Of a DNA stretch of 64,000 nucleotides, positions 5,232 to 31,025 are shown piece by piece (the stretch's first letter is position 1; every line of letters begins with the position of its first letter). The stretch comes from an uncultured Candidatus Saccharibacteria bacterium. Its GTDB lineage: Bacteria; Patescibacteriota; Minisyncoccia; Phycocordibacterales; UBA9973. The stretch is from NCBI GenBank assembly GCA_964527235.1, contig CAZGNC010000002.1:82381-146380 (forward strand), read 5' to 3'. Below the pieces are notes generated by a model. It worked only from the letters and a program-made list of their open reading frames with translations, was not told the origin of the DNA and ran no database searches. Position numbers and translations under genes: made by a program.

Positions 5232-5257
5232 TCGAACTAAGTCTATTAGTGCAAAAA

Positions 5258-13520: not shown

Positions 13521-13778
13521 CTATCGGATATCGTGTGGGGTTCTTTCTCCTAAGTACTCGCGTATCTTTAAAAATATTTTTTCTTTCTTTATGAGAATTT
13601 CGTTCTTATAAATTGGTTTCGCATCTAAGAAAATAGTTCCATTTTTAACTTTTACATCTTTGGGTTCTAATGGTAGGCCTATGACTTCAGTTATGGCACG
13701 TCGAACAGACTCACCCTTAAGTTCTTCTCCAGCTAGAAGATTACCAAATCTACTCAGAAGATCTTTAATCTCTATCAT
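13521..13778 (-). CDS. DUF721/DciA-like small protein
   Basis: 85 aa ending ...GTIFLDAKPIYKNEILIKKEKIFLKIREYLGERTPHDIR, which follows the DUF721 pattern (..L.V..dspvwaqeL.flk..ll.kln..lG....dIr). It sits immediately downstream of dnaN, the canonical genomic position. Confidence 0.5.
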   Translation of the reverse strand: MIEIKDLLSRFGNLLAGEELKGESVRRAITEVIGLPLEPKDVKVKNGTIFLDAKPIYKNEILIKKEKIFLKIREYLGERTPHDIR

Positions 13779-14872
13779 CGATTCATTGGCATTATTAGGT
13801 AAGTAAACGAGCTATCAGACACAGGAGAAACAACCATTGGTTTAGAAGCTTGGTTGAGCCTTATAGACACACTATCGGTGTTTATAGATTGAAAACAATC
13901 CATAAAATATTTATGACTGAAACTAAGATCCATGTCTTCCCCTTTTAGGGTTGCATCTAGTTGGGTTTTATTTTCTCCAACATCATTGTTCTGTGAAGAA
14001 AGTTCAAATATTTTATCTTTTGGTTTAATAGAAAAGTTAACTTGATTAAATTTATCTGAAAATATATTGGAGAGTTTTAAAGCGTTTAAAAGATCTTGCT
14101 TGAGAACAACTATCTCAGTATTAAATTCTTTAGGAATAATCTGACGATAATCAGGAAACAATCCGTCTATGACTCGAGAAGTTAGGTAAACACTATCTGA
14201 TGAGAAAGATATCTGGTTTTTATTAAAACAAACCTTTATATCTTCATCATATTCGCCAAATACCCTCAGTATCTCAGGTATATTCTTAAAGGGTATCAAA
14301 ACCCCCATAACTTCTTCCATCCTCTTAATCTTAACCTTCTTCTCAGCTAGCCTAAATGAATCAGTAGAAACAAATACTAAATTATCCCCTTCTGAATACA
14401 TATAAACACTAGATATCTCTGGCTTTATATCAGAAACCGAGGAACTGTAATAAACAGACTTTATACCATCCATTAATTTCTTAGCTTCTATCTCAAATGC
14501 AGTACCCTCAACCATAGGAATAGTTGGGAAATCTTCACTTGGTTGTCCTTTTAGCTTTATTTTATTCTTCTTGGTTTTAATTAAAATATTTCCTTCATCA
14601 CCCTCTATTAATATATTCTCGTTTTTAAAGACATTAGAGAATATACCTGACAATACAGAGCCTGAGACCGCCGCTACGCCTTCTTTTTCAACTTTAGCTG
14701 GTACCTCTACCTCAATACCTAAACTAAGGTTTGTGGCACGAATTTTGAGCGATTTACTAGAAGCTATGAGTAGTATAGAGTTCAGTACTGGCAGAGTTAA
14801 ATTCTTCCCTGTTATCCTTTCTGCTTTATAGATTGCTTCTTTGATTTTTTCAACACTACACTCTAGTTTCAT
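13775..14872 (-). CDS. dnaN: DNA polymerase III beta sliding clamp
   Basis: 365 aa with a typical DnaN N-terminus (MKLECSVEKIKEAIYKAERITGKNLTLPVLNSILLIAS) and three-domain length. Confidence 0.9.
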   Translation of the reverse strand: MKLECSVEKIKEAIYKAERITGKNLTLPVLNSILLIASSKSLKIRATNLSLGIEVEVPAKVEKEGVAAVSGSVLSGIFSNVFKNENILIEGDEGNILIKTKKNKIKLKGQPSEDFPTIPMVEGTAFEIEAKKLMDGIKSVYYSSSVSDIKPEISSVYMYSEGDNLVFVSTDSFRLAEKKVKIKRMEEVMGVLIPFKNIPEILRVFGEYDEDIKVCFNKNQISFSSDSVYLTSRVIDGLFPDYRQIIPKEFNTEIVVLKQDLLNALKLSNIFSDKFNQVNFSIKPKDKIFELSSQNNDVGENKTQLDATLKGEDMDLSFSHKYFMDCFQSINTDSVSIRLNQASKPMVVSPVSDSSFTYLIMPMNR

Positions 14873-15088
14873 ATGTTTATATCTTTATATATTTAAATTA
14901 TTAATACTATTAGTTGTGTGGATATGTGTATAACTTTTTCTAATCTTATTCTGTAAGGGTATTTTAATTTTTTTATATTTTTTATTTATCTAATAAATTT
15001 TGATATTTTTCAACTAACAGTGTATGTATTTATTTTCAGTGTTTTTGTTCATAAGTTATCACCAGTGTATTCCCCTACTTACCCACAG
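14873..15088. promoter_or_regulatory. Candidate oriC/DUE: extremely AT-rich dnaA-dnaN intergenic region with degenerate DnaA boxes
   Basis: Boxes seen: TGTGGATAT (14917-14925), TTACCCACA (15079-15087) and AGTTATCACCA (15054-15064). Long A/T tracts look like a DNA-unwinding element. Confidence 0.5.
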
Positions 15089-16435
15089 CTATTTGAACAT
15101 AATTCTTATCTGATCTATTTCTTGTAATAGTTGAGGATTATTTTTTAAATCAGATTTTATTTTTAAATAAGAATGAATTACTGTTGTGTGGTCCTTTCCT
15201 CCAAGTTTCTGACCTATTAAAGGGTAAGACACGTTAAAGTCCTCTCTAAGAATATACATAACTATTTGTCTTGCCTTAACTATTTCTTTTCTTCGAGTCT
15301 TTTCATAGATAGAAGATTCTTCTAGATTGTAGTAGTCACTTATTATTTTCACCACATCTTTTATGGCTACATTTTTCTTAGGTTTGATGTTGTTTTTAAG
15401 TAGGTTTTTTACCTCAGGTATAGAAAGAGGCTTATTTTTAAGGCGATATTGGCAGATTATGGTGTTTAGACTCCCCTCTAACTCACGGATGTTACCTTGG
15501 ATTGAAGAGGCTATGTACTCCATAACTTCTTGGCTTAGGTCTATTTCTAACTCATTCAACTTCATTTTTAATATTGCTAATCGAGATTCATACTCAGGCT
15601 CAGAGATATCAACAATCATACCTGCAGCAAATCTAGACTTTAGACGGTCGGCTAGTTCAGGTATGAAATTAGGGTGCTTGTCAGAAGAAAAAATAATTTG
15701 TTTATTGTTCTCGTGGAATGTGTTGAATGTATGGAACAGTTCTTCTTGGATCTTTTCCATTTTTCCTATGAATTGGATATCATCGATGATTAGAAGATCA
15801 TATTTTCGATACTTTTCTTTAAAAGAGTTTGCTTTGTTGTTCTGCAGAGAATTTATAAAGTCAGTTGCGAACTTCTCTAGGGTCATGTAATGAACCTTTT
15901 TATTTGAATGCTTTTCTTTTATAGCATTACCCACTGCCTGTATTAGGTGGGTTTTACCTAAACCAGTGCCTCCATAAATGAAGAATGGATTATATTTGGT
16001 TCCAGGGTGCTCTACAATAGCCTGGGAGGCAGCATAAGCTAATTCATTAAACCCTCCAACGATGAAAGAGTTGAATTGATATCTAGAATTAAGGTTATCT
16101 TCAGGGTTTATGTATAGATCCTTTAGAGGTAGCTCCTCCCCTGTGGTTGGGGCTACTATTTTCTGGACTTCAGGTTTACTCCCCAGATCCATTTTAGTTA
16201 TGGTGTATTCAACTGCACGCATGTTCTCATATGCGTTAGCTATGGTCTTAGTTATTAGCTTATGATATTTATTCTTAAGCCAATCTCTAACGAATTCATT
16301 AGGTACACCCACGTAGATGATCCCCGTTTCTTCCTTTAAAATGCAGGTGTTTTTAAACCAAGTGCTAAAATTAGCCTTTGAAACCCCTGCTTCTATCTCG
16401 AGTAGGCAATTTTTCCAAAGTTGTTTTGTATCCAT
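15089..16435 (-). CDS. dnaA: Chromosomal replication initiator protein DnaA
   Basis: AAA+ Walker A GGTGLGKTHL, Walker B IDDIQF, and a C-terminal DnaA-box-binding helix-turn-helix (...HTTVIHSYLKI); 448 aa. Confidence 0.95.
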   Translation of the reverse strand: MDTKQLWKNCLLEIEAGVSKANFSTWFKNTCILKEETGIIYVGVPNEFVRDWLKNKYHKLITKTIANAYENMRAVEYTITKMDLGSKPEVQKIVAPTTGEELPLKDLYINPEDNLNSRYQFNSFIVGGFNELAYAASQAIVEHPGTKYNPFFIYGGTGLGKTHLIQAVGNAIKEKHSNKKVHYMTLEKFATDFINSLQNNKANSFKEKYRKYDLLIIDDIQFIGKMEKIQEELFHTFNTFHENNKQIIFSSDKHPNFIPELADRLKSRFAAGMIVDISEPEYESRLAILKMKLNELEIDLSQEVMEYIASSIQGNIRELEGSLNTIICQYRLKNKPLSIPEVKNLLKNNIKPKKNVAIKDVVKIISDYYNLEESSIYEKTRRKEIVKARQIVMYILREDFNVSYPLIGQKLGGKDHTTVIHSYLKIKSDLKNNPQLLQEIDQIRIMFK

Positions 16436-16571
16436 CGACCTACATTATACTATCTTGTCTACTAAAGAGAACTTGTAAAAACTTATTAACTATGTTGATA
16501 AGCTGTTGATAATCTAATTACCAGGGGCGCAACTTTTGACTTTTTGGGCTTTGGCGGGTATACTCCTTGAT
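16436..16571. promoter_or_regulatory. Divergent dnaA/rpmH promoter region with two direct near-consensus DnaA boxes (TGTTGATAA at 16493-16501 and 16504-16512)
   Basis: Each box has one mismatch to TGTGGATAA. Confidence 0.4.
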
Positions 16572-16706
16572 ATGTCGCAAACATACAATCCTAAAAAGAG
16601 GAAAAGAAGCAAAGCTCATGGATTTCTAGTTAGATCTAAGAGTAAAACAGGCCGAAAGGTCCTTTTGAGAAGACAAAGAAAGGGGCGCGCGAAGCTGTCT
16701 GTATAG
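16572..16706 (+). CDS. rpmH: 50S ribosomal protein L34
   Basis: Hand translation gives [44 protein letters not shown] (44 aa). It is below the ORF-track size cutoff. Confidence 0.9.
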
Positions 16707-16733
16707 CCTTTATTTAAGCCTTTTGGCTTTAAA

Positions 16734-17060
16734 ATGCTACCTAAAAAGAATCGGGCCAATAAAAATAAGGTAGAAAGGGTGTTCAAAGAGGGAAAATTTG
16801 TAAATTCCCCCTTTTTTAGCTTTAAATTTATATTAAATAAACAATCTAATACTAGGCAAATCTCTGTAGTAGTGCCTAAAAGTGTGTCTAAACTAGCTGT
16901 TTCCAGGAACAGGCTTAGGAGGCTAGGTTATCAAGTCTTAGAGCAATATTTAGACCTATTCCCCGCTGGTATTGAGGGGGTTTTGATGTTTAAGAGGATA
17001 AATGAGGATATTTTAGCTATAAGTAATGAAATTAAGCAGATTGCTAGTAAAATTAATTAG
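16734..17060 (+). CDS. rnpA: Ribonuclease P protein component
   Basis: 108 aa, basic, at the conserved position after rpmH; sequence matches RnpA (..KKNRANKNKVERVFKEG..). Confidence 0.85.
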   Translation: MLPKKNRANKNKVERVFKEGKFVNSPFFSFKFILNKQSNTRQISVVVPKSVSKLAVSRNRLRRLGYQVLEQYLDLFPAGIEGVLMFKRINEDILAISNEIKQIASKIN

Positions 17061-17241
17061 TTTATATCAAAAATACATTTCCGTTTTAACTAAAAGGAGC
17101 TGTGTTTTTTATCCTACATGCTCAGAATACACAAAGGAAGCCATAACTAAATATGGCACCCTAAAGGGCTCTCGTTTGGGCATTTTGCGTATTTTAAGGT
17201 GCCATCCTTGGCAAAAGGAGCATATTGACCTAGTTCCTTAG
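17026..17241 (+). CDS. yidD: Membrane protein insertion efficiency factor YidD
   Basis: CVFYPTCSEYT...RILRCHPW signature; 71 aa. Overlaps the rnpA 3' end. Confidence 0.85.
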   Translation: MKLSRLLVKLISLYQKYISVLTKRSCVFYPTCSEYTKEAITKYGTLKGSRLGILRILRCHPWQKEHIDLVP

Positions 17242-17290
17242 ATATTTATATTTTCTAGCGTTTTAGAGTGTTTTCATATAGAATGGAATA

Positions 17291-19840: not shown

Positions 19841-21211
19841 TTATTTTAAACCTGAGCATGTGCCACTTGTGTAGCCAGCTTCATTACTAGCTCTACTAAA
19901 ATGCATAGCGTCCTTCTTGGTTTTCCAATAACCACCCCAACCAAATCCTCTGCTTGTAAAAAGTTGCACAAATGCTAGCGGCATATCTGTTGTACATGGA
20001 GATGAAGAGTTTACATAAGGATTGGCGCTAGGGTTTATGTCTATAGCTAAGCCGAAAGCGTGGGCTGAAGGGGTTGTGCTTGTTCCTGTGGCACTTCTTG
20101 GATTAAAGCCACCCACTGAATTTATTCGATAATTTCTAATTGCAGGGTTTGTGCTGTTTTTCCATGCCGTATCTATTATTTGAAGATCCGCCACAATTGA
20201 TTTGTGAACAGTAACACCCTTCCCTAAAAAAACGATATTTACTAAGTTTGCGCTGTCACAAGATACAATTCCTTGTCTGTTTGTCTTTCCACAAATAACA
20301 CCCGGGTCTCCGTCTATTTCAGGGCCTTCGACAAACTGTATTGTTGTTGGATCTATGTCTAAAACAGTGTTAAGTATTTTGGGATTAATTGTATACAGAA
20401 TAATCCAAGCCCCCATTGCTATGAGAAGTCCAACGACCGCGTCTGTAATCCTTTTCTTTCCCTCTCCTTTCGCCCCAGGAAGTTCACTGGTAATGTATTC
20501 TAGGCCACCCATTATTATCATCAAAACTGCGAGCACTGCCGAAATGCCTATGACTAACTTTATTATTACATTTAGATAATTACCCAGTGCATTCGGTGAT
20601 GCTGTATCTATTGGTTCTGTTAGGTTTGGTAATGGTGCAAGAGGTTTGTAGATGGTGGTAGAAGTGGTGGTGTTTGTGGTTGTTGTGGGTGTACCTAATG
20701 GTGTTGTGTTGCCCAACCAGTTCCAATTATTGCCTAGCATATCGCAGGTACCTTCACAGTCATAACCTAGCTCATTCTTACCTTCAGAAGAGTAGTCTGC
20801 ACCGCCGTCACTAATGTTTGTTATACTGACATAGTATTCGCACTCAGGAAGCCTTCCTGAAATTCTGGTCTCACATTCTGATTCACCAGTTTTGTAATTT
20901 AATGAAAAGTTGTCGGAGGTTGTAGATATTTTCCTATTTTCTATTTCTGTCACATCATCATCTGGCCCCAAATAGTCTTTTTCTGTAATACTTATTTCTA
21001 AAGATTTTCCAATACAATTTTTTGTAGAAACGTCGATTCTTATTTGTGGAGGGTTGTTGCCCTTGTACCAAGAAGTTGCTTGGGTGCCAGAGGGGTTGAA
21101 TTTAGTTGATTGTATCGTGCATTTTTCAGCTGCCTGTGCCGAAAAGTTCAATCCAATTACAAAAACTATCACTGAAACAAATATTAGTATGTAGTTTGAA
21201 ATTTTACTCAT
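19841..21211 (-). CDS. Fusion protein: signal peptide, Cys-rich extracellular domain, TrbC/VirB2 pilin-like two-helix hydrophobic module, and a C-terminal M15 (LAS-family) zinc peptidase
   Basis: The pilin-like core ...KLVIGISAVLAVLMIIMGGLEYITS...AVVGLLIAMGAWIILY resembles the TrbC/VirB2 motif (AVLMIIWGGxxY). The C-terminus has SAHAFGLAIDIN and ...DAMHF, matching the Zn-ligand pattern of VanY/L-Ala-D-Glu peptidases. Confidence 0.6.
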   Translation of the reverse strand: MSKISNYILIFVSVIVFVIGLNFSAQAAEKCTIQSTKFNPSGTQATSWYKGNNPPQIRIDVSTKNCIGKSLEISITEKDYLGPDDDVTEIENRKISTTSDNFSLNYKTGESECETRISGRLPECEYYVSITNISDGGADYSSEGKNELGYDCEGTCDMLGNNWNWLGNTTPLGTPTTTTNTTTSTTIYKPLAPLPNLTEPIDTASPNALGNYLNVIIKLVIGISAVLAVLMIIMGGLEYITSELPGAKGEGKKRITDAVVGLLIAMGAWIILYTINPKILNTVLDIDPTTIQFVEGPEIDGDPGVICGKTNRQGIVSCDSANLVNIVFLGKGVTVHKSIVADLQIIDTAWKNSTNPAIRNYRINSVGGFNPRSATGTSTTPSAHAFGLAIDINPSANPYVNSSSPCTTDMPLAFVQLFTSRGFGWGGYWKTKKDAMHFSRASNEAGYTSGTCSGLK

Positions 21212-22194
21212 TAAAATTGTATGCTTATTTCTTTCTTTGCAGTCTGGAATATTTTGTAACTGTTCTCAATTTCAAGTTTTAAGGTTGATATTCCAGAAGA
21301 GTCGCCTGCAACCTGAAGAGGGATCATGTTGCTTTTTGAGTTTTTATTTTCAACTAAAATTCCATTTATGTACCAATTCCAAATTAATTCAGGTCTACCT
21401 ATTTCTTTTGGTGAAATAAAATACGGGATAGCAGCTAGTGTCTCCTCACCCTGTATTTGATATTGATTAGACAGTGCTTGGTCTAATAACACTCCCATAG
21501 ATGTATCATTTTTATAAAACACAATTTCCGGGTTTGTGGGGGTTATGTTTATTTGGCCTTCTGCTTGGCTTTTCTGGTCCCCTGTTGTCGCGATTGCTGA
21601 TATGCTATTAGAACTATCAAGAAAGCTTCCTGAATATATGAAGAAGTTTTTTCCATAACCAGATTCATTGGGTTGATTGTTTAGGTCTTTCTTCCAGACA
21701 TAGTTCATGTTTTTAGGGTTTACAGAAGTATTCGCTGAGGTCTTTATTTCAGGCATGGCTACTACTTTTATTTTACTATCTGATACAGGTAAAGCTTTCC
21801 CTTTATAAAAAGGAGGAACATATGAATCACTAGCTTGCCAAAGCAGGATCATGGACGAGGGTTTCAACACAACCGTTTTCTCTATTTGGCCATCAGGGAG
21901 AAGAATTCTCGCTCGGACGGTGGTCGTCGTTCCCGAGTCGCCGATAGTTAAAGATAGAGATTTTTTGCCCACACCCGATAGTGCGCTTTTATCATTTATA
22001 AACCAATTGATTTGTACGCTATCTAGGTTGGCAGCATAGCTTCGAAGAGAAATATTTACGTTGGAGTTTGGGCTAGGGTTTTGTGGTGAAACATCAACCA
22101 GGATGCTGCTTGGAGATACGGCTAGGACTGGGTCGGCAAAGCCTACACCCAGTACTAGTACTAAACATACCAATAAATATTTTAAACCCATCAT
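21211..22194 (-). CDS. Secreted hypothetical protein (signal peptide, beta-rich or Ig-like)
   Basis: N-terminal MMGLKYLLVCLVLVLGVGFADPVLA signal peptide; 327 aa. Confidence 0.6.
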   Translation of the reverse strand: MMGLKYLLVCLVLVLGVGFADPVLAVSPSSILVDVSPQNPSPNSNVNISLRSYAANLDSVQINWFINDKSALSGVGKKSLSLTIGDSGTTTTVRARILLPDGQIEKTVVLKPSSMILLWQASDSYVPPFYKGKALPVSDSKIKVVAMPEIKTSANTSVNPKNMNYVWKKDLNNQPNESGYGKNFFIYSGSFLDSSNSISAIATTGDQKSQAEGQINITPTNPEIVFYKNDTSMGVLLDQALSNQYQIQGEETLAAIPYFISPKEIGRPELIWNWYINGILVENKNSKSNMIPLQVAGDSSGISTLKLEIENSYKIFQTAKKEISIQF

Positions 22195-22212
22195 AATAAT
22201 AAAATTATTATA

Positions 22213-24054
22213 TCATTTATAAGGATTTCCCGCTGTCTCTAATTCCATTTTTGCCTTTTTTATTGAAAGGATCTGTGATGGGTCAGATGTGATTATCTGG
22301 TCTTCGGTGTAAGAAGCCACTATTTTTATAGCTACGTGTTTTAGTCCAGCAAAGAATATACCCTCTCCTACTCCTGATTCAAGCAATAAGTACTTTTCCT
22401 CGTCCGTTAGGCTAAATGTCTTTTGAAGTACGTCTATTGTAGTTGGTGACTGCTTTAGTAGTATTTGGATAGAAGAGTTGGTTATTATCGGTATTCCATA
22501 AGGAGAATTCATAAAGTCGCCTGCGTCCTGGGTTATGGTTGCAAGGCCTAGATAATACTTTCTTCCACGTTTAGCAATAGAGTATAGGAAAGAAGCAGTG
22601 TCTTCAGATTTCATCATCCACCAAGCTTCGTCGACTACTAACAATCGCTTTTTAAGGTTTTTTCGGACAGCGTTCCATATGTAGTGCATAACGATATACA
22701 TAGCTACTGGCTTCAGGTCGTCTTCCATGTCGCGCACAGAGAACACCACAAATTTCTTGTTGATATCTACGTTCGAAGGACGGTTTATGAAAGTAGCCCA
22801 AGTTCCCTTGGTGTACTTGGTTAGTCTTTGCATTAAGCTTTCACTTCCCTGCATGCCACCGAGCACCATCTCGAAATCAGACAATAGTGGTGGCTCGATA
22901 TTTGAGAAGTCAGACTGTGTAGTGATATCTTTCAATGCGTAGGTCTCTGATATGGCGCGATCTATTAATGAATCTTCTTCTGGGGTAAGTCCTCCTAGCA
23001 TTAAGCGAAACAAACCAACCAAGTTAATTATGTTTGACCTCAATACGTCTTCTGCGGTTTCGTCTTCTCTGGGAACTGGTAGATCGAAAGGATTAATATG
23101 GTGATCAGAAGATAAAGAGATATTGAAATATCTACCACCAACTGCTTCAGCTAGATATTCATATTCTCTTTCTGGATCGATGACTATAACATCAATGTCG
23201 AACATTAAGGATCTTAGAATTTCGAGTTTAGTAGCATAGGATTTTCCAGAGCCAGCCTTAGCAAATGTAACAGAGTTATAGTTCTCAAGAGAAAATCTAT
23301 CGAAGATAACGAGGCTAGAGTTGTGGCGGTTTATGCCATATAGTATTCCCTTGTCTGAAGTAAGGTCGAAGGAAATGAATGGGAAAATACTAGAAAGTGG
23401 GTCAGAGTTTAGCTTCTGGTGTACTTCTAGTAGGTCTGTGCCTAGTGGGATAACGCTCTTGAAGCCCTCTTCTTGTTGGAATAATGCAGGTTTTATATAG
23501 ATCAATTTGGATTCAAGCATTGATTTGACCTCATTTTCAACCCTAAACAGATCAGCTTCGTTGTCACCATAGATGGTTATGTAAACTCCAACATCAAACA
23601 TCTTTTCTTGTGCTTGGATTAAGTTGTCACGAAGTTCTTCGAGGTCTTGGTGAGCAGTGTCGAGCATTGGGTCACGCACCATTCCCTTTGCTTCTCGTAT
23701 TCCTATCTGGCTTTGCACCTCGGCAACTTTTTTCTGGAATTGTCTTAATACTACAGAAGTATCAATCGGGTGAACGAAAATAGAAACATCAAAAATTTTA
23801 TCCAAGTTTATTATTGGCGAGAACCAATTATCAGATAAATATCTAGGATAAGAAATTATAAAGAAAGTGCGAGCTATTTTATCACCCAAGTTTAGGCCCT
23901 TAGATTCTACTTTGAGTGCTGAAGGGGCGATAACGTCAGCAAGTTCTAGCGTCGCTGACTTGTAAATTTCTTCTGGTAGGACAGACAAAACAGAGCTTTT
24001 CATTTGCCCTACTTCGTCACTTTTTCTTCCCAATAATTTATCAAAAATTCCCAT
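22213..24054 (-). CDS. VirB4/TrbE/CagE-family type IV secretion ATPase, C-terminal ATPase part
   Basis: Walker A FAKAGSGKSYATK and Walker B LLVVDEAWWMM. The most likely start is MGIFDKLL at 24054; the longer ORF extends to 24144, overlapping the upstream gene. Confidence 0.85.
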   Translation of the reverse strand: MGIFDKLLGRKSDEVGQMKSSVLSVLPEEIYKSATLELADVIAPSALKVESKGLNLGDKIARTFFIISYPRYLSDNWFSPIINLDKIFDVSIFVHPIDTSVVLRQFQKKVAEVQSQIGIREAKGMVRDPMLDTAHQDLEELRDNLIQAQEKMFDVGVYITIYGDNEADLFRVENEVKSMLESKLIYIKPALFQQEEGFKSVIPLGTDLLEVHQKLNSDPLSSIFPFISFDLTSDKGILYGINRHNSSLVIFDRFSLENYNSVTFAKAGSGKSYATKLEILRSLMFDIDVIVIDPEREYEYLAEAVGGRYFNISLSSDHHINPFDLPVPREDETAEDVLRSNIINLVGLFRLMLGGLTPEEDSLIDRAISETYALKDITTQSDFSNIEPPLLSDFEMVLGGMQGSESLMQRLTKYTKGTWATFINRPSNVDINKKFVVFSVRDMEDDLKPVAMYIVMHYIWNAVRKNLKKRLLVVDEAWWMMKSEDTASFLYSIAKRGRKYYLGLATITQDAGDFMNSPYGIPIITNSSIQILLKQSPTTIDVLQKTFSLTDEEKYLLLESGVGEGIFFAGLKHVAIKIVASYTEDQIITSDPSQILSIKKAKMELETAGNPYK

Positions 24055-24061
24055 ATATTTA

Positions 24062-24709
24062 TTATAGTTGTGTGCCAACTTGAATCTTACCTTCTTGCTC
24101 TCCGGGATTGAAAACTTTATAAAAAATTTCAACGACTTCTTCACTACCTAGCTGGATTGATTTAATGCCACAGCGAGCAAGCCCTTGCTGAACTACGTTC
24201 ACTCTTTGTTCAAGCTGGGAGCGTTGTTCTTCGAAATCCATCTGACGGCTAGCATTTATCTCAGACTCTTCCCTCTTTTTAAATATTCCCATCAATGCAT
24301 TTGATTCTGATTTTAGACTCACACGAGAATAAGGCACTACCACGAAGAAAGTTTTAGTCATTATGCTTACAGAATCTGTGAATTTCCTTATAAATTCTAT
24401 GTATTCCTTGGTTTGAAGTTTAAGTAGCGGTTCGTTGAGCACTTTCATTCTGTCTTCTAGAGTTAGAAGATAAGGTCGAATATCTAGTCTTCTAGACTGA
24501 ATTGAAATTTGAGCAGAGAAATCCAGGGTGTTTAGAAAGCTTTGGAACTGTAGAATTATGGCTTTCTGCTCGTCGTTGGATTTGAGCGATAAGTTGGTAG
24601 AGTTGGCTAGCACAACAGCACGAAGACCTCCGTCTTTTAGGATTATGATTCCATCACGGACTTCTTGTATTGGTACGAAATCTTGGGCTGCTTTTGCCTT
24701 TATTGCCAT
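24062..24709 (-). CDS. VirB4 N-terminal domain encoded as a separate 215-aa ORF
   Basis: ...QDFVPIQEVRDGIIILKDGGLRAVVLANSTNLSLKSNDEQKAIILQFQSFLNTL...SIQSRRLDIRPYL matches the conserved N-terminal region of VirB4/TraC/TrsE proteins. Its TAA stop is 7 nt upstream of the ATPase ORF start, in a different frame. Confidence 0.6.
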   Translation of the reverse strand: MAIKAKAAQDFVPIQEVRDGIIILKDGGLRAVVLANSTNLSLKSNDEQKAIILQFQSFLNTLDFSAQISIQSRRLDIRPYLLTLEDRMKVLNEPLLKLQTKEYIEFIRKFTDSVSIMTKTFFVVVPYSRVSLKSESNALMGIFKKREESEINASRQMDFEEQRSQLEQRVNVVQQGLARCGIKSIQLGSEEVVEIFYKVFNPGEQEGKIQVGTQL

Positions 24710-24737
24710 TGAAATTTTATTTTTACAAACCTAATAA

Positions 24738-25157
24738 CTAATTTCTTTCTTTGTTTAAATCCAAAACGTCTAAACTCCAAGCCAAATCACGCAACTTCCC
24801 ACTACTCATTTTGATTTCGGGTGCGGTAGTTGGTTTTTGGTTGGCGAATGCTTGTGCTCTTTGCTGATCATATGTTTTCGGCTCCTTCTTCCATATATAC
24901 AGTTTACTCTGCATGAAGTATTTTATACTAGCTTCTAGCATGTCTACGAATGGTTTATTGTTGGGCCTGTAGAAAGTTAGCGCCACAGTAAGTGCTATGA
25001 GGATAACCAACGGAATAAATCCCCAGAAAAGACCCAGCAGTCGATACACAACAAAACACATCCCTCCCCCTCCTGCCAGGTATATGAACTGTCTGAAAGT
25101 GAAAGGGCCAAAAATTTTATCTTCTATTTCTAAAAATTGTGGTACTTTAAACTGCAT
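24738..25157 (-). CDS. VirB3/PrgI-like small two-TM T4SS protein
   Basis: 139 aa. FLEIEDKIFGPFTFRQFIYLAGGG followed by two TM helices, the PrgI/VirB3-type pattern that normally precedes VirB4. Confidence 0.5.
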   Translation of the reverse strand: MQFKVPQFLEIEDKIFGPFTFRQFIYLAGGGGMCFVVYRLLGLFWGFIPLVILIALTVALTFYRPNNKPFVDMLEASIKYFMQSKLYIWKKEPKTYDQQRAQAFANQKPTTAPEIKMSSGKLRDLAWSLDVLDLNKERN

Positions 25158-25160
25158 ATC

Positions 25161-26309
25161 TTATTCTATCACTTCTCGGTACGGATCGGTACCAGACTTA
25201 GGGTCTTTATTTAGAGCTGGTGCCGGAGTTGCAACTTTTGAAATGTTTTTCATCGCATAGTCAGTTTGAGTTTTAGGGATTTGGAAAGTTCCGGCGAATT
25301 TTTGCGCTTCGATAGACTTAGGAGGAGTTGGCCCACCAGAAGCAAGATGCCATTCTTGTTTGAGCATCTCTTCTCTGTCTATGTTGTTGGCTGGGTTTGG
25401 AGCAGCAGGCTGCTGTGCGACTCTAGGAGGAGGTGTTGGGATTGGAGCATTAGGCATAATAGGAGATGGTCTTGGGATTGGGACCACGTTATGGGCATTT
25501 GGGGCATTCTTTACATCAGGCATAAGCTCTATGCCTGCCTTTTTCAACGTTTGCATGTCGTCTTTTAGGGTGTGCACAGTTGAGGCAGGGTCTGGGATAA
25601 CTGTTTTGGCTGGTGCTGCTGTCGGTGCTGATGCTGGGGTTTTGTTTTCACTACTTGCGTTCATCATGTTTTCTCTGATTTTCTTTATTATCTTTTCATT
25701 TACATCAGTTACTAACTTTGGAATTAGTTCAGTTGGGATTTTAAGCTTGTCTTTTAGCGCTTGTTCGAATTGAGTAGGTTGAATTACTCCAGTTATAACA
25801 TCAACAGTTACTACTTCTAGAATGCCTGTCTGCTCTACGTTTAGCTTGTTGTCTTTAGATATAGTGTAAATTATGTTTTGGTAATCTAGCTTGGAGATAG
25901 CATCTTGGACATTTTTTGCCAAGTTAGCAAAGCGTTCATCTAGTCCTTGTGTTTCGAGTTCTGGTTCTGGATTCTGAGAGTTTGCCTTAAATGTATTATT
26001 TAGCTCTGTTTTTATTGGGTTTATTACTAGGCTATTTATCTCTTCAAGCATGTTGCCGAATGCGTCTTTCGCCAATAGAGATATTTCTTTTTTAAGATTT
26101 GACTCGAATTCTTCTGTGGAAATTATGCCCAGTAATACTAAAGTGGCCTCAGTCCCAAGAGTTTGTATTTGAGCCTCAGTTAGGTTGTATTTAATACTTA
26201 TCCTCTTCAATGTTTCTAACCAGCTCATGCTTGCAAACATTGATTGAACTGTTGGTGGCAACTTTGCGTAAAAAATAGCTATATTTTGTTTTAATTCTTC
26301 AGGATTCAT
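25161..26309 (-). CDS. Hypothetical protein with Pro/Ala-rich C-terminal half
   Basis: 382 aa, no TM, proline-rich low-complexity tail. Co-oriented with the T4SS genes. Confidence 0.55.
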   Translation of the reverse strand: MNPEELKQNIAIFYAKLPPTVQSMFASMSWLETLKRISIKYNLTEAQIQTLGTEATLVLLGIISTEEFESNLKKEISLLAKDAFGNMLEEINSLVINPIKTELNNTFKANSQNPEPELETQGLDERFANLAKNVQDAISKLDYQNIIYTISKDNKLNVEQTGILEVVTVDVITGVIQPTQFEQALKDKLKIPTELIPKLVTDVNEKIIKKIRENMMNASSENKTPASAPTAAPAKTVIPDPASTVHTLKDDMQTLKKAGIELMPDVKNAPNAHNVVPIPRPSPIMPNAPIPTPPPRVAQQPAAPNPANNIDREEMLKQEWHLASGGPTPPKSIEAQKFAGTFQIPKTQTDYAMKNISKVATPAPALNKDPKSGTDPYREVIE

Positions 26310-26325
26310 TGTTTTAAATTATTTT

Positions 26326-28575
26326 TTAATGATGTCCTCCCCCACCTCCGTGTGATTCTTTCTTCTCATCTCCTACGTGAGATAGGTCAACGTTTATTTT
26401 TACATTTTTGAGTGCATCAGATATTGTGGTGCCCAAGTCTTTAAAGAATGCCCCCTGTCCCTTACCATAATCTACCCCCATTTGCTTGAATCCTCCACGC
26501 ATACTCAAACCAATAGCCCCAACTATCCCTGCAGTTAGTTTAGAAAACATTGTTCCTTGCTCCTTGGCTACAACTTCAGCTACGTTGCGTAAATCATATG
26601 TCCCTGTTACACCTGATTGCACGACACTACTTATAATTCCTTGCTTAGGCCGAGCCTCAACAATTGTATGTAAGTCGTCCCATGTTTGTTGTGTAGCAAG
26701 AAGTCCTCCAGCAACGGGACCATGGGCGCCTGACCCTATTGCATTATTGATGATATCTCTTTCTTGTTGTGTTAATGAATCCCATTTCCTCCCTTGTAGT
26801 GCTATGCCGAGTGGGTTAGCAGCAGCATTGTTGCCTGAGTTTTCTCGTACAGCTCTGTCCCTAGCCATTTTTTCTCTAGCTTCATATCTTTCTTGTCCAT
26901 TTAGTTCATCCCATTTTTTCTTTGAACCATGCGTAATAGTATTCGCAATTGAATCTAGTTCATGTCGGGCATGGGCTGCGTGCCGTACTCCTACTTGGTC
27001 AGTATTAAGTAGATTACCAAGCGTTCTTTGTGCCCCAGCAATTCCCGTGCCTTGTTGCATTAGTCCTACTAACTGATCTTTTCTTGAGCTAAATATCTCT
27101 GATCTTGCCTTAAATCTCTCAACTATATTGGAATTTGGGTTATTCAATATTGCTCTATTGGCCACTATCCTGTTTGTGTTTTGCTGAATTCTATTAGCTG
27201 CAGTATCCCCCGTAGAAGCTCCTTTCATAAAGGCTCCTACTGTATTTCTTCCCACAAATGCTGTGCCTAGTGCTGCGCCTCCTATGCCCACAACTCCTGC
27301 AGTCTTAAGCCCACTCATCACTATGTCGGTAAACTGTCCTGAAGCTGATTTAGCATATTTAACGCCCTTAAGAAGTAGTATGACAATCAACACCGCAGGC
27401 ATGAAGAGTATTATTAGCTGGGCTATTGCGCCTTTATTGTTGCTGTCAGCGACAGAGGCAAATATTTTCGCATTAAGTATTTCTGATATGACGTACAGGA
27501 TGAACATGAATATTGCCGCCATGAAAGAAGTCTGGAAGAGTTGCCCTATCCAGCTATCGAAGCCTATAGTGTCCTTCCCCCTTAGGCTAGGTACTGCCCT
27601 TGTTACAAAGGCCACTGGCGATACGATCATTAGCATCATCAAGGTTAACATTCTCCCAAGCATACTTATACCAGCCATTAAAAATGCATAAGACAAAGCA
27701 AAAGCAATAATTCCGTATATTACCATCAGAGATATTTTAAAGGTTGTACTTAGCTGAGGTGTTCGCGGATCTTGTTTTAAATTTTCGAAGAATGTCCCAC
27801 TAAAAAATGCATTGACATCAAAGCCAGAAATAAGAGCAGCGCCGAGCTCCTTTTCTCCCTGGTTTGCACTTATTGCATTCTGTACTGGGCGAGAGGTGTT
27901 TATTTTATTGTAGAAGACTAAAGCCGTTATGTTCGATGCATCTATGACTACCTTAGTGAAGAAAAGGCTAAAGTTCACAAGAAGAGCTACCATGATAACT
28001 GTAGCAACTATTTTGTTTGCTTCCCCGTGGCCTAGGTCTAGGATTTTTTGTATTGCAGCGTAAAGCAATATAAGGATAAAGAAAATATTGGCTAGGTCGC
28101 GAACAACTGTCCAGATGCTGGCAACAAAGTCAGCTTTATACATATTACTACTTAGCGTCAGTGCGGCCGTGAAGTCGAACATTTTCGCAAAGACAGCCAT
28201 CAACATCGACGGCAGAGTAACAAAGAAGACGTAAGTTACTTTCTGGATACATCCTTCTAGGCTAAAGTCTAACAAGTTCTCACAGTCATCTAGGTTTTTT
28301 TCAAGTTCTGATTCTTGTTTTGGTGCTGGATTGCTTGAAGAGTATGGAGTCCAGATTGCATTATTTCCATCAGATCCCATTTTGGATTCACAGGCTACCT
28401 TATTCATTTTGTGTACAGTTTGTTTTACATGGCGATTCCCTTGAGCTGTCGTGTATTCACAGGTTCCTAGTAATTCATCTGCTACAGCTTGAGTTGAAGC
28501 CATGGAAAAACCTGCTACCAAGATAGACAGTGCGAATATAAATGGGATTAATTTTTTAATTATTTTCGCTAACAT
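26326..28575 (-). CDS. VirB6-like polytopic membrane protein with hydrophilic C-terminal tail
   Basis: Signal/TM at the N-terminus, about 6-8 TM helices in the middle, and a tail with three degenerate WDxL repeats (KKWDEL, RKWDSL, QTWDDL). The call rests on position in the cluster and topology, not a motif. Confidence 0.45.
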   Translation of the reverse strand: MLAKIIKKLIPFIFALSILVAGFSMASTQAVADELLGTCEYTTAQGNRHVKQTVHKMNKVACESKMGSDGNNAIWTPYSSSNPAPKQESELEKNLDDCENLLDFSLEGCIQKVTYVFFVTLPSMLMAVFAKMFDFTAALTLSSNMYKADFVASIWTVVRDLANIFFILILLYAAIQKILDLGHGEANKIVATVIMVALLVNFSLFFTKVVIDASNITALVFYNKINTSRPVQNAISANQGEKELGAALISGFDVNAFFSGTFFENLKQDPRTPQLSTTFKISLMVIYGIIAFALSYAFLMAGISMLGRMLTLMMLMIVSPVAFVTRAVPSLRGKDTIGFDSWIGQLFQTSFMAAIFMFILYVISEILNAKIFASVADSNNKGAIAQLIILFMPAVLIVILLLKGVKYAKSASGQFTDIVMSGLKTAGVVGIGGAALGTAFVGRNTVGAFMKGASTGDTAANRIQQNTNRIVANRAILNNPNSNIVERFKARSEIFSSRKDQLVGLMQQGTGIAGAQRTLGNLLNTDQVGVRHAAHARHELDSIANTITHGSKKKWDELNGQERYEAREKMARDRAVRENSGNNAAANPLGIALQGRKWDSLTQQERDIINNAIGSGAHGPVAGGLLATQQTWDDLHTIVEARPKQGIISSVVQSGVTGTYDLRNVAEVVAKEQGTMFSKLTAGIVGAIGLSMRGGFKQMGVDYGKGQGAFFKDLGTTISDALKNVKINVDLSHVGDEKKESHGGGGGHH

Positions 28576-28589
28576 TTTTAATAACTTTT

Positions 28590-31025
28590 TTAAAACTGTG
28601 TGTCCCCTGCGTGTTTGTAATCATTGTCATTTACTTTAAACAGAAGACCACAATCTATATCTACGCTTACAGGGAATCCGTTTGCAATATCTCCATAATA
28701 CCAATGAGCATTAACCATAGGCAGGTCAGTGAACCCCGGAGTGCCTAAAGTGTTGCCAAAACCATTTCTGAATGTGAATAGAGATTTTCCTTTATTGTTT
28801 GAGAACTCAGGTCTTATTATGTCGCCATGGCTAAATCCATTTACTATTGGTACATCACAGAAAACTTCTCTTTCAGTTCCAGATGAAGTCATGATTGGTC
28901 CTGGAATTAAGTTCGGTTCTCCCCCGAGATCGCGAGGAATCAAGAAGTAATAGCTCTGTCCTTTCAATGAAGAAATATTTGTTGTGCTTTTAGCTCCACC
29001 TGGTGCAGACCACCCAGCAATGGTTCGCTCTTGTGCGCACTGGTTCTCTAGTAGAAGCAGATTCTGCTTTCTCTCTTTCATTAAATCAAGCTGGCTCCTA
29101 AGGTCTTCGATTCCTGCTGAGTTTGCCACAGAAGCAGCAATAGCATCGTATTGTTTTCTTATATTGATTAGATTCTTTTCTTGAGGTGAGCCAACTGCTG
29201 GCTGGGTGGTTATGGGAGCAAGCATGGCTTCTATAGAATTCAACCTTGTTAACACGGTCATCTTCTCTCGCTTTTTGTCAGTTATTTGCTTGTATTGTTG
29301 GTCGTTAGTGTCTAATTCTTTTATAGCATCTATGTACAATATACTGTTAGGCAACCCAAATCCTCCTTTCTGTGTAGGGGTTATCATCTTTAGATTTATC
29401 CAATCTTTTAGTGCACTTACTGCATATCGTATCTCGCGAATTCCATCTTTAGATGCTCTAACCTTAAGAGGACTGTCATTGGTTGTTTCTGTCATAATTT
29501 TCCCATTTATGACTCTATCTTTTTCTTCATCAAGTCTGGTCTCCCATCCTTTTTCTGGTCCTGGTATGCACATATCTAGTCTCTTAGCTACTGGCCAGAT
29601 TCCATCTAGAACTTCTATTAACCCAGGATTTTGGTTGTTGCTGGTGTTGTTAGATATAAGTTGTAGCTCGAGTGCTGTGTTTGCTATAGCTCCTGGTATG
29701 TAGGTTGCAACTCCCGGAGTCGCACAGTAGCTAGGAGGTGTTGCGTTTGCACAAGTGTTCCCAACATCTTCTTGGGTGACTACCCCTGTTGCTGGGTCTG
29801 TTACTATGGTTTTACCACTGACTTCTTTCTTGAAATCATCAAGTACAATTTCTTGGTCTGGCATTCCGCTCCATGGTGTGTCGCTGTCTGAGCCACCTAG
29901 TGTTTCTCCATAGTAATTAAAGCTGTCATCTGCTGGTGGGTTTACGTGGTTGGATAGTGCTGTCAAACCATCACCTATAAACTTATTTAAAAGAGCATCG
30001 AATATGGTAGCTAGGCTGTTGCCCAGAGCTGCATTTAGAGATGCTTGTTCCTCGGGCTTATTCATTGCTCCTATTATTTTAGAAGCTACGACTGATCCTG
30101 GAGTGGTAGTAGCAAGTCCTTCAGGGCAGGCATATTGCATGTCGAAGTTAGCTCTTGCAGCGTCTACTGCAGATTTGTATAAGGATCTGTATGTTGGGTC
30201 ACTTGCTGCACGTGCCTCATCATAAGGTACTGTGGACGGGTCGAAGCTTGGTTTATTGAAAGGGTTAAGTTGACTTTTGGATGGGTCAGATTTGCAGACT
30301 TGAGGCGACAAGAATCCCTGCCCTTGTTGCAGAGCATCATTTACTTTTTGGGTAGCTGTTCTTGTAGTGCCGTCTAAATTTATCGCTAGTTCTTTCGTCA
30401 CTAACATATCGAATCCGATAGCATTGTTTTGTGGGTATTGGGTGTTCACCAAGAAAGTGTCCCATCCTCCATAGTTGAAGTCTACTCGATATCGCTGTAG
30501 TTCATAGGGGTCATTTGTAATTCTACTCATAGAGTACTCCAGGTTGTCTGAAAGCTGTCTCTTGTAGCTTCCTATGACTCCTAGAAGATAATTTTTACCG
30601 AATGGAAATCGTATAGAGTCATAACCTATGATACTAACTAGGTCTTTTATTTCTGATTTAGCTACATCCTGAAAGAAAGATCCTGGATTTTCTAAGAAAA
30701 GAGGTGCTCCGTGAAAGCCTGTATTTATCCAGTTTACGGTACTCTTGGTCATTTCAGCCAAGGCTTTCCTAGCAACAGCTTTTAATGTTTCTCTCACGAT
30801 AGCTTTAGCTATTTCTTTTAGCTGGGCTGCTGTGCCGGTAACATTCGCTGTTGCGCTTAGTGCGCTTGAAATATTCCCTACTACTCTTTGAATTGCCGCT
30901 ACTGGGTCTACCCATTGTGCTTCAGCCTTTTTGGGAACTGTTAGGAAAATAAAAGACGGTGCAAGAATAAGAACAACAAGTATTGATGAAATGAGTTTTT
31001 GAATTTTTTCTTTTTTAAAAGTCAT
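28590..31025 (-). CDS. Large (811 aa) membrane-anchored secreted protein, hypothetical (surface or adhesin-like)
   Basis: N-terminal TM/signal (ILVVLILAPSFIFLTVPKKAEA), then a long extracytoplasmic domain without recognisable motifs. Confidence 0.6.
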   Translation of the reverse strand: MTFKKEKIQKLISSILVVLILAPSFIFLTVPKKAEAQWVDPVAAIQRVVGNISSALSATANVTGTAAQLKEIAKAIVRETLKAVARKALAEMTKSTVNWINTGFHGAPLFLENPGSFFQDVAKSEIKDLVSIIGYDSIRFPFGKNYLLGVIGSYKRQLSDNLEYSMSRITNDPYELQRYRVDFNYGGWDTFLVNTQYPQNNAIGFDMLVTKELAINLDGTTRTATQKVNDALQQGQGFLSPQVCKSDPSKSQLNPFNKPSFDPSTVPYDEARAASDPTYRSLYKSAVDAARANFDMQYACPEGLATTTPGSVVASKIIGAMNKPEEQASLNAALGNSLATIFDALLNKFIGDGLTALSNHVNPPADDSFNYYGETLGGSDSDTPWSGMPDQEIVLDDFKKEVSGKTIVTDPATGVVTQEDVGNTCANATPPSYCATPGVATYIPGAIANTALELQLISNNTSNNQNPGLIEVLDGIWPVAKRLDMCIPGPEKGWETRLDEEKDRVINGKIMTETTNDSPLKVRASKDGIREIRYAVSALKDWINLKMITPTQKGGFGLPNSILYIDAIKELDTNDQQYKQITDKKREKMTVLTRLNSIEAMLAPITTQPAVGSPQEKNLINIRKQYDAIAASVANSAGIEDLRSQLDLMKERKQNLLLLENQCAQERTIAGWSAPGGAKSTTNISSLKGQSYYFLIPRDLGGEPNLIPGPIMTSSGTEREVFCDVPIVNGFSHGDIIRPEFSNNKGKSLFTFRNGFGNTLGTPGFTDLPMVNAHWYYGDIANGFPVSVDIDCGLLFKVNDNDYKHAGDTQF

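What the first reader, a model, noticed from the sequence alone, without database searches (positions are those of the whole stretch)
22213..24709. VirB4 ATPase split into an N-terminal-domain ORF and an ATPase ORF separated by 7 nt
The 215-aa ORF (24062-24709) has the conserved VirB4 N-terminal domain pattern. The adjacent 613-aa ORF (start 24054) carries the Walker A and B ATPase domain. Together they make about 828 aa, the size of an intact VirB4. The two reading frames differ and an A6 run (24121-24126) lies in the junction region. This is a natural gene fission, a pseudogenising or assembly frameshift, or a programmed frameshift. Which one it is determines whether the apparatus is functional.
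Basis: partly seen in the sequence, partly recalled or inferred. Interest (0 to 1): 0.6.

Follow-up and report, generated by a model that had tools for sequence, protein, structure and literature searches.

The report
Naturally split VirB4 (TrsD-like plus ATPase)
The two adjacent reading frames are two real, separately translated genes: a small TrsD-like protein matching the front end of the VirB4 secretion ATPase, followed by the ATPase itself. This split is ancient, conserved across Patescibacteria and already published, so it is not a frameshift and the apparatus looks intact.

Summary
A 215-aa ORF (24709..24062, minus strand) ends 7 nt before a 613-aa ORF (ATG 24054..22213) in a different frame. 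An A6/T6 run sits at 24121-24126.

The 215-aa protein is homologous to the first ~180 residues of VirB4. The 613-aa protein carries the rest of VirB4, including Walker A and B.

It is a conserved gene fission, not an error, pseudogene or programmed frameshift:
- All 77 orthologous loci that contain both genes are split. Spacers run from -4 to +599 nt, in all three relative frames.
- Several spacers contain inserted selfish genes.
- A strain 89% identical in DNA shows 75 synonymous and 1 non-synonymous codon differences in ORF1, with no indels. The third-position phase switches at the junction.
- Two independent assemblies are 100% identical across the region.

The split point and gene order (PrgI/VirB3-like, TrsD-like, VirB4) match trsC-trsD-trsE of the staphylococcal plasmid pSK41. 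TrsD homologues next to virB4 in Patescibacteria were already reported (PMC12102498). A small fused clade also exists.

Verdict: ordinary, already known, low interest.

The parts
24062..24709 (-). TrsD-like / 'TraC-like' protein, 215 aa. It is a free-standing homologue of the first ~180 residues of VirB4.
   Evidence: NCBIfam hits: VirB4_plasma positions 103-253 (E 8.8e-11), TrsD/TraD family (E 9.4e-6), CD1110 VirB4 positions 2-165 (E 1.3e-5). It is collinear with residues 1-225 of the fused 797-aa relative P0232. For the AF2 model (pLDDT 76), the top 14 PDB Foldseek hits are all TrwK/VirB4 of R388. More than 7,800 homologues were found, and the top 120 are all 211-222 aa. The precomputed Pfam label is PF26593 TraC-like.
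24055..24061 (-). 7-nt spacer (TAAATAT on the coding strand) between the ORF1 stop and the ORF2 ATG.
   Evidence: Orthologous spacers range from -4 (ATGA overlap) to +599 nt, and 59 of 77 are 17 nt or shorter. That pattern is compatible with translational coupling, which is an inference.
22213..24054 (-). VirB4-family ATPase lacking the first ~180 residues, 613 aa. Walker A is at 23239-23262 and Walker B at 22621-22644.
   Evidence: NCBIfam conju_CD1110 scores 364.5 bits (cut-off 325) over profile positions 183-733 of 752. Pfam P-loop_TraG, AAA_10 and DUF87. PDB 4AG5 VirB4 C-terminal domain, E 1.1e-37. 24% identity to pSK41 TrsE from residue 40 aligned to residue 36. Motif positions.
24121..24126 (-). 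T6 run (A6 on the plus strand) inside ORF1. It is not a frameshift site.
   Evidence: The ORF1-frame sequence after the run (YKVFNPGE) is conserved, with N201, P202 and E206 invariant. The run is flanked by synonymous changes in L001 with no indel. It is present in only 13 of 77 loci.
24738..25157 (-). PrgI / VirB3-like small membrane protein, 139 aa, immediately upstream.
   Evidence: Pfam PrgI, E 2.4e-11, 44.4 bits against a cut-off of 27. The same gene order is seen in L081, L082 and L083 and in pSK41 trsC-trsD-trsE.
19841..21211 (-). 456-aa protein with a T4SS-pilin-like segment and a C-terminal M15 peptidase domain. It belongs to the same minus-strand cluster.
   Evidence: Pfam T4SS_pilin (E 1.8e-8) and Peptidase_M15_4 (E 2.8e-18).
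13775..16435 (-). dnaN (13775-14872) and dnaA (15089-16435). These are chromosomal, origin-proximal markers next to the cluster.
   Evidence: Pfam DnaA and DNA_pol3_beta domains. This matches the published origin-proximal location of the patescibacterial T4SS.

Best explanation
This is a natural, ancient and selectively maintained gene fission of the type IV secretion ATPase VirB4. It lies in a chromosomal, origin-proximal T4SS cluster of a Patescibacteria (Paceibacteria/Nomurabacteria-like) genome.

Gene 1 (215 aa) is a TrsD-like protein equivalent to the first ~180 residues of VirB4. Gene 2 (613 aa) starts at its own conserved ATG, 7 nt after the stop of gene 1. It encodes the rest of the N-terminal half plus the Walker A/B motor domain. 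Both are translated as separate polypeptides.

The mechanism is inferred. The two polypeptides would reassemble in trans to give a VirB4-like unit. In that unit the TrsD-like module would do what the extreme N-terminus of VirB4 does in R388: contact VirB3/PrgI and the membrane, and hold protomers together. The short spacer would favour translational coupling and equal dosage.

The arrangement is homologous to trsC-trsD-trsE of pSK41/pGO1-type Gram-positive conjugation systems, with the cut at the same position.
For: SHOWN:

(1) Homology of both halves.
- ORF1 and ORF2 hit consecutive parts of the CD1110 VirB4 profile (2-165 and 183-733 of 752).
- Concatenated ORF1+ORF2 aligns end to end with the fused 797-aa relative P0232 at 48% identity. 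The only large gap is 31 residues, at ORF2's N-terminal extension.
- The ORF1 model's top 14 PDB hits are all TrwK/VirB4 (prob 0.99-1.0, TMq 0.45-0.50). The next hit has probability 0.25.

(2) The split is conserved.
- The top 120 of more than 7,800 ORF1 homologues are 211-222 aa.
- Of the 150 best 50%-identity cluster representatives, only one (797 aa) is VirB4-sized; the longest of the others is 443 aa.
- All 77 of 77 GTDB species loci that contain both genes are split. ORF1 is 209-231 aa. ORF2 is 599-669 aa, apart from one 91-aa outlier.

(3) There is no frameshift logic.
- Spacers run from -4 to +599 nt. Relative frames are 0 in 20 loci, +1 in 31 and +2 in 26.
- In 34 of 77 loci no frameshift could fuse the genes.
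- Spacers in other species hold a GIY-YIG gene, 23S_rRNA_IVP genes or MITE-like inserts.

(4) Purifying selection acts on each frame up to the junction.
- L001 is about 89% identical in DNA with zero indels.
- ORF1 has 75 synonymous and 1 non-synonymous codon differences. The ORF2 part has 28 and 3.
- Mismatches sit at codon position 3 of each gene's own frame.

(5) It is not an assembly artefact. Two independent assemblies (SRR14271365, SRR14271372) are 100% identical over all 2,497 nt.

(6) The split point matches pSK41.
- The gene order is trsC (135 aa), trsD (227 aa), trsE (672 aa).
- ORF2 residue 40 aligns to TrsE residue 36.
- The ORF1 family aligns to TrsD over 161 columns (hhalign E 2.9e-4).
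- TrsE begins MIMAFLKKKK, like MAFFDFLKKK of the orthologues.

(7) Literature.
- TrsD homologues with remote homology to the VirB4 N-terminus are the most abundant T4SS component in Patescibacteria.
- 1,664 of them are associated with VirB4. The one in Ca. Southlakia epibionticum is essential (PMC12102498).
- VirB4 N-terminal domains join protomers, embed in the membrane and contact VirB3 and VirB8 (PMC12857230).
Against: - No raw reads could be mapped.
- No direct evidence (proteomics, co-purification, multimer model) shows that the two proteins associate, so the in-trans reassembly is inferred.
- The match to the curated TrsD/TraD NCBIfam model is far below its cut-off (25.6 against 200 bits). 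The hhalign probability against pSK41 TrsD is only 40%.
- The local Pfam-A copy returned no family for ORF1 even at E=10, although the precomputed annotation lists PF26593.
- Foldseek E-values for the ORF1 model are modest (2e-3 to 2e-2) and TM is about 0.47.
Confidence: 0.93

Rival explanations
1. Assembly or sequencing error: a homopolymer indel, for example in the A6 run, artificially breaks one 828-codon virB4 gene.
For: Different frames, a 7-nt gap and an A6 run nearby. ORF2's frame is open for about 90 nt upstream of its ATG.
Against: Two independent assemblies from different runs are 100% identical over 2,497 nt. A strain at 89% identity has no indel and the same junction. All 77 of 77 species are split, with variable spacer and frame. 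The ORF1-frame peptide after the run is conserved.
Confidence: 0.01
2. Pseudogenising frameshift: a recently broken virB4 and a non-functional apparatus.
For: Fused relatives of ~800 aa exist (P0232). The two ORFs sum to that size.
Against: The codon-difference counts are 75 synonymous to 1 non-synonymous in ORF1 and 28 to 3 in ORF2, each in its own frame. ORF2's ATG and N-terminal motif are conserved. Walker A and B are intact. The split is phylum-wide. The TrsD homologue is essential in a cultivated relative.
Confidence: 0.01
3. Programmed +1 ribosomal frameshift, for example tRNA-Phe slipping on the T6 run, makes a fused VirB4 in addition to or instead of the two products.
For: In this window a +1 slip on ATT-TTT-T would enter ORF2's open frame (my reading of the sequence).
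Against: The fused product would lose the invariant N-P-x-x-x-E motif. The relative frame is 0, +1 or +2 in different species. 34 of 77 loci cannot be fused by any shift, and only 13 of 77 have a T-run of 6 or more. Some species have whole genes inserted between the two.
Confidence: 0.02
4. The 215-aa protein is an unrelated accessory protein that merely sits upstream of an N-terminally short VirB4. It would not be a detached VirB4 segment.
For: No hit in the local Pfam-A. No sequence hit to PDB chains, even with a profile. The TrsD model score is far below its cut-off.
Against: Three independent NCBIfam VirB4-type models match at the expected N-terminal profile positions. It is collinear with fused relatives at 38-48% identity. 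The structural search returns only VirB4 at high probability.
Confidence: 0.03

Closest known systems
TrsD + TrsE of staphylococcal conjugative plasmids pSK41/pGO1 (MPF_FATA class). TraD + TraE of pIP501 is recalled from memory and was not tested here.
   Same: Same gene order: VirB3-like, then a ~220-aa protein, then a ~610-670-aa VirB4-like ATPase. Same cut position, with ORF2 residue 40 aligned to TrsE residue 36. TrsD ends about 13 residues after the F-Y-x-x-Y/F-D/N motif, as ORF1 does. The ATPase N-terminus is similar: M-A-F-L-K-K-K-K.
   Different: Sequence similarity is remote: 17% identity to TrsD and 24% to TrsE. The NCBIfam TrsD cut-off is not reached. The pSK41 system is plasmid-borne with a relaxase and a coupling protein nearby. 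Here the cluster is chromosomal, next to dnaA/dnaN. I saw no relaxase or VirD4 in the ORFs scanned, and only part of the window was scanned.
The patescibacterial chromosomal T4SS described by Quinonero-Coronel et al. 2025 (PMC12102498). Its essentiality in Ca. Southlakia epibionticum is from Wang et al. 2023, as cited there.
   Same: The gene set matches: VirB4, TrsD homologue, PrgI/VirB3 and a VirB2-like pilin domain. The location near dnaA, dnaN and ksgA also matches. This window is an instance of that system.
   Different: Nothing substantive. The paper lists TrsD as a component with remote homology to the VirB4 N-terminus and no assigned function. It does not, in the passages I read, spell out the identical cut point or the fused clade.
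Single-polypeptide VirB4 (TrwK of R388; CD1110-family VirB4; TraC of F).
   Same: The combined length is 828 aa. The domain order is collinear, the motor domain has Walker A and B, and the N-terminal fold is alike.
   Different: It is encoded as two cistrons, and the cut lies inside the canonical N-terminal half.

Membership tests
VirB4 family T4SS ATPase (CD1110-type, MPF_FATA) | P-loop motor domain homologous to the VirB4 C-terminal domain, with Walker A and B | tested here: met
   NF045971 scores 364.5 bits against a cut-off of 325. PDB 4AG5, E 1.1e-37. Motif positions.
VirB4 family T4SS ATPase (CD1110-type, MPF_FATA) | N-terminal ~180 residues and motor domain in one ~750-830-aa polypeptide | tested here: not met
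   There are two cistrons of 215 and 613 aa. The split is conserved in 77 of 77 loci.
VirB4 family T4SS ATPase (CD1110-type, MPF_FATA) | Encoded next to a VirB3-like (PrgI/TrsC) gene within a T4SS cluster | tested here: met
   PrgI lies at 24738-25157, and a pilin/M15 peptidase gene lies downstream.
TrsD/TraD family conjugative transfer protein (NCBIfam NF041427) | Score at or above the curated cut-off of 200 bits | tested here: not met
   25.6 bits, E 9.4e-6. This is remote homology only. hhalign against pSK41 TrsD gives E 2.9e-4, probability 40%.
TrsD/TraD family conjugative transfer protein (NCBIfam NF041427) | A ~200-230-aa protein encoded between the VirB3-like gene and an N-terminally short VirB4-like ATPase, with the cut at the same position | tested here: met
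Pfam PF26593 'TraC-like' | Significant match to the family model | tested here: inconclusive
   The database lists a precomputed hit (E <= 1e-5) for this exact protein and all homologues. The local Pfam-A scan returned nothing even at E=10. The model is probably absent from that copy.
Programmed ribosomal frameshift gene | A conserved slippery site, a fixed relative frame, and a downstream frame lacking its own conserved start | tested here: not met
   The frames are 0, +1 and +2 in 20, 31 and 26 loci. The ATG and M-G-I-F start are conserved. A T-run of 6 or more occurs in 13 of 77 loci.
Pseudogene | Relaxed selection or further disruptions | tested here: not met
   75 synonymous to 1 non-synonymous (ORF1) and 28 to 3 (ORF2) codon differences, with no indels, against L001.

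The most novel reading that the evidence does not exclude
The cut point and the basic N-terminal peptide of the ATPase (M-x-F-x-x-L-x-K-K) are shared between pSK41/pGO1-type plasmids and essentially all Patescibacteria. The split would then be ancestral to that whole branch of monoderm T4SS rather than a patescibacterial quirk.

The few fused genes (P0232, P0271-P0280, Colwellbacteria-like) would be secondary re-fusions that lost the ~31-residue N-terminal extension.

On this reading, the detached TrsD-like module and the ATPase's N-terminal extension form a docking pair. That pair would let the cell assemble or regulate the VirB4 ring in trans, for example by varying the stoichiometry of the membrane-anchoring module.
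Probability: 0.3. Interest if true: 0.3.

Novelty: already known. Interest (0 to 1): 0.12.

Why it matters
It settles the practical question: the T4SS ATPase in this window is intact and should not be annotated as a frameshifted pseudogene or 'fixed' by merging the ORFs. For the field it adds little. TrsD-like proteins next to virB4 in Patescibacteria, and their remote homology to the VirB4 N-terminus, are published, and one such gene is essential in a cultivated relative. Three modest additions are the identical cut point with pSK41 TrsD/TrsE, the existence of a small fused clade, and the tolerance of inserted selfish genes between the two cistrons.

Tried and rejected
- Sequence searches of ORF1 alone and of a 40-sequence profile against PDB chains found nothing meaningful. 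Only the structure-based search found VirB4.
- The local Pfam-A scan of ORF1 found no family even at E=10.
- I looked for TrsD in Guglielmini et al. 2014 (PMC4027160). The main text does not mention it, so the statement about TrsD/VirB4 homology is cited only via PMC12102498.
- The pELF plasmid paper (PMC13492992) turned out to use 'TraD' for a VirD4-like protein and is irrelevant.
- I considered a +1 slip on the T6 run and rejected it on comparative grounds.
- I considered predicting the structure of a fused relative (P0271) to model the interface. I did not run it, because only about 5 sequences cover its second half and the tool returns no interface metrics.
Full report
**1. What is in the sequence**

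On the minus strand, ORF1 runs 24709..24062 (215 aa, stop TAA at 24064-24062). Seven nucleotides later an ATG at 24054 opens a 613-aa ORF that ends at 22213. ORF2 is in the +1 frame relative to ORF1. A T6 run on the coding strand (A6 on the plus strand) sits at 24121-24126, within ORF1 codons GAA-ATT-TTT-TAT. ORF2 carries Walker A (AKAGSGKS, residues 265-272) and Walker B (LLVVDEAW, residues 471-478).

**2. Identity of the two proteins**

- ORF2 passes the curated NCBIfam cut-off for the CD1110-type VirB4 family (364.5 bits against 325). It covers profile positions 183-733 of 752.
- ORF1 matches the N-terminal part of three related models:
  - VirB4_plasma, positions 103-253, E 8.8e-11
  - CD1110, positions 2-165, E 1.3e-5
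  - the TrsD/TraD family, E 9.4e-6
- ORF2 residues 234-590 match the crystallised VirB4 C-terminal domain 4AG5 (E 1.1e-37). Residue 260 aligns to TrwK residue 446. ORF2 therefore still contains about 230 residues of the canonical N-terminal half, and the cut lies inside that half rather than at the domain boundary.
- An AlphaFold2 model of ORF1 (40-sequence alignment, mean pLDDT 76.3) was searched against the PDB. The 14 best hits are all TrwK/VirB4 chains of the R388 T4SS (prob 0.99-1.0, TMq 0.45-0.50, about 211 aligned columns). The 15th hit has probability 0.25.
- Sequence-only searches of the PDB found nothing for ORF1.
- The local Pfam copy has no matching model. The precomputed annotation of the protein database does label this exact protein PF26593 'TraC-like'.

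**3. Is the junction precise?**

A search of 1.84 billion cluster representatives gave 2,098 relatives of ORF1. Among the best 150, only one (797 aa, P0232) is VirB4-sized; the longest of the others is 443 aa. Concatenated ORF1+ORF2 aligns with P0232 over its whole length at 48% identity. The only large gap is 31 residues, corresponding to the N-terminal extension of ORF2.

Nine further sequences (P0271-P0280, 50-92% identical to P0271) also cross the junction. One of them is from a Candidatus Colwellbacteria MAG. The locus of P0271 shows PrgI followed by the fused gene. The two ORFs are therefore exactly collinear with a single-chain relative.

**4. Fission, error, pseudogene or programmed frameshift?**

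*Conservation.* The top 120 of more than 7,800 homologues of ORF1 are all 211-222 aa and come from Patescibacteria (Nomurabacteria, Paceibacteria and others). In 80 loci from different GTDB species, 77 contain both genes, and all 77 are split. ORF1 is 209-231 aa. ORF2 is 599-669 aa, apart from one 91-aa outlier.

*No fixed geometry.*
- The spacer ranges from -4 (ATGA overlap) to +599 nt.
- The relative frame is 0 in 20 loci, +1 in 31 and +2 in 26.
- In 34 loci no frameshift could join the frames.
- Only 13 loci have a T-run of 6 or more near the end of ORF1.
- ORF1's C-terminal motif E-E-x-V-E-[ILV]-F-Y-K-x-F-N-P-G continues in ORF1's frame past the T-run.
- ORF2 always begins M-[GSA]-[ILF]-[FL].

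*Insertions between the genes.* The spacer holds 23S_rRNA_IVP genes in three species (L046, L051, L060) and a GIY-YIG gene in one (L038). In four species (L020, L027, L032, L042) it holds a ~120-nt insert with terminal inverted repeats. This is possible only if the two are independent cistrons.

*Selection.* L001 is about 89% identical in DNA, with no indel in 1,005 nt. ORF1 differs at 76 codons, 75 of them synonymous. The available ORF2 part differs at 31 codons, 28 of them synonymous. Mismatches fall on the third position of each gene's own frame, so the phase switches at the junction.

*Reproducibility.* Two independent assemblies from runs SRR14271365 and SRR14271372 are 100% identical over all 2,497 nt.

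Together these exclude an assembly error, a pseudogene and a programmed frameshift about as firmly as is possible without read mapping.

**5. Relation to known systems**

NCBI's TrsD/TraD family pointed to staphylococcal plasmids. In pSK41 the order is trsC (135 aa, VirB3-like position), trsD (227 aa), then a 672-aa DUF87/VirB4-like gene (TrsE) 14 nt downstream.

- ORF2 aligns with TrsE from residue 40 (TrsE residue 36) to the end (E 2e-33).
- The ORF1 family aligns with TrsD over 161 columns, up to the shared C-terminal F-Y-x-x-[YF]-[DN] motif (hhalign E 2.9e-4, probability 40%).
- TrsE begins MIMAFLKKKK, reminiscent of MAFFDFLKKK and MGIFDKLLGRK in the patescibacterial ATPases.

The cut is therefore at the same place in both lineages.

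The literature already covers this. Quinonero-Coronel et al. 2025 (PMC12102498) report the following:
- They found 2,272 homologues, 1,664 of them associated with VirB4.
- The Ca. Southlakia epibionticum copy is essential.
- The cluster often lies near dnaA, dnaN and ksgA.

The window shows exactly that context: dnaN at 13775-14872, dnaA at 15089-16435 and ksgA-like RrnaAD at 31984-32754.

**6. How it most likely works**

Shown: there are two separately encoded proteins under strong purifying selection, collinear with VirB4.

Inferred: they reassemble non-covalently. In R388, VirB4 N-terminal domains connect the protomers of each dimer, embed in the inner membrane and contact VirB3 and VirB8 (PMC12857230). 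The TrsD-like protein would supply that module in trans, next to its PrgI/VirB3-like partner encoded immediately upstream. The short spacers (59 of 77 are 17 nt or shorter) suggest translational coupling. None of the genes in this cluster has a recognisable Shine-Dalgarno sequence, so the absence of one before ORF2 is not informative.

The conserved ~38-residue N-terminal extension of the split ATPases is missing from the fused clade. It is a candidate docking element, but this is speculation.

**7. Verdict**

The arrangement is the normal state of the patescibacterial T4SS and of pSK41/pGO1-type systems, and it is already described. Interest is low.

Noticed in passing
L046 (~4622-5111), L051 (~4637-5047), L060 (~4637-5100), L038 (~4634-5232). 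In each case this is the spacer between the trsD-like gene and virB4.: In four other species the spacer between the two genes has been invaded by a small selfish-looking gene. Three carry a 23S_rRNA_IVP (four-helix-bundle) gene (Pfam E 1e-35 to 4e-43), flanked by TAG/CTAA-rich short repeats. One carries a GIY-YIG nuclease gene (E 3e-17). L069 keeps what looks like a remnant of the IVP gene's 3' end.
   Followed up: partly
L020, L027, L032 and L042, in the spacer after the trsD-like stop (122-126 nt).: A ~120-nt insert has terminal inverted repeats (GGGTCACATTAGAA...CGTGATC // GATCGTGATC...TTCTAACGAG). It sits exactly at the old start codon of virB4 and regenerates an ATG at its far end, so it looks like a MITE.
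   Followed up: no
P0232 (797 aa); P0271-P0280; L081:3001-4370: A small, internally diverse clade has the two halves fused in one ORF and lacks the ~31-residue N-terminal extension of the split ATPases. At least one member is from a Candidatus Colwellbacteria MAG. Whether this is ancestral or a re-fusion was not resolved.
   Followed up: partly
window 24260-24300 (ORF1 residues ~137-150) and 24013-24054 (ORF2 residues 1-14): ORF1's low-confidence loop contains LMGIFKKREESE, which resembles ORF2's N-terminus MGIFDKLLGRKSDE. A loose 'G-hydrophobic-hydrophobic...K-K' pattern recurs at both places in orthologues. It could be chance or a shared short linear motif.
   Followed up: partly
P0212 (417 aa), P0220 (443 aa) and other 280-440-aa hits: Some TrsD-like homologues carry long Pro/Gln/Thr/Asn-rich low-complexity C-terminal tails after the conserved domain.
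   Followed up: no
window 19841-21211 (-): One 456-aa ORF combines a T4SS-pilin-like hydrophobic segment (Pfam T4SS_pilin, TrbC) with a C-terminal M15 D-Ala-D-Ala carboxypeptidase-type domain. This is a pilin-like anchor fused to a cell-wall hydrolase.
   Followed up: no
L001 (CAYRYY010000073.1, 6.4 kb): The contig carries this patescibacterial T4SS segment (ORF1 with one amino-acid difference) but is deposited in a MAG labelled 'uncultured Gammaproteobacteria bacterium'. It is probably a mis-binned contig. Many other loci are labelled 'Candidatus Saccharibacteria' although their closest relatives are Paceibacteria/Nomurabacteria.
   Followed up: no
window 13775-16435 and 16436-17290: dnaN and dnaA lie about 2 kb from the T4SS cluster. 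The ~850-nt stretch upstream of dnaA has no ORF of 120 aa or more and may contain oriC. It was not examined for DnaA boxes.
   Followed up: no
window 21211-28605, the 30 nt upstream of the start codons of seven cluster genes (the 749-aa ORF through the pilin/M15 gene): None of the seven T4SS-cluster genes inspected has a recognisable Shine-Dalgarno sequence. The upstream regions are simply A/T-rich.
   Followed up: no
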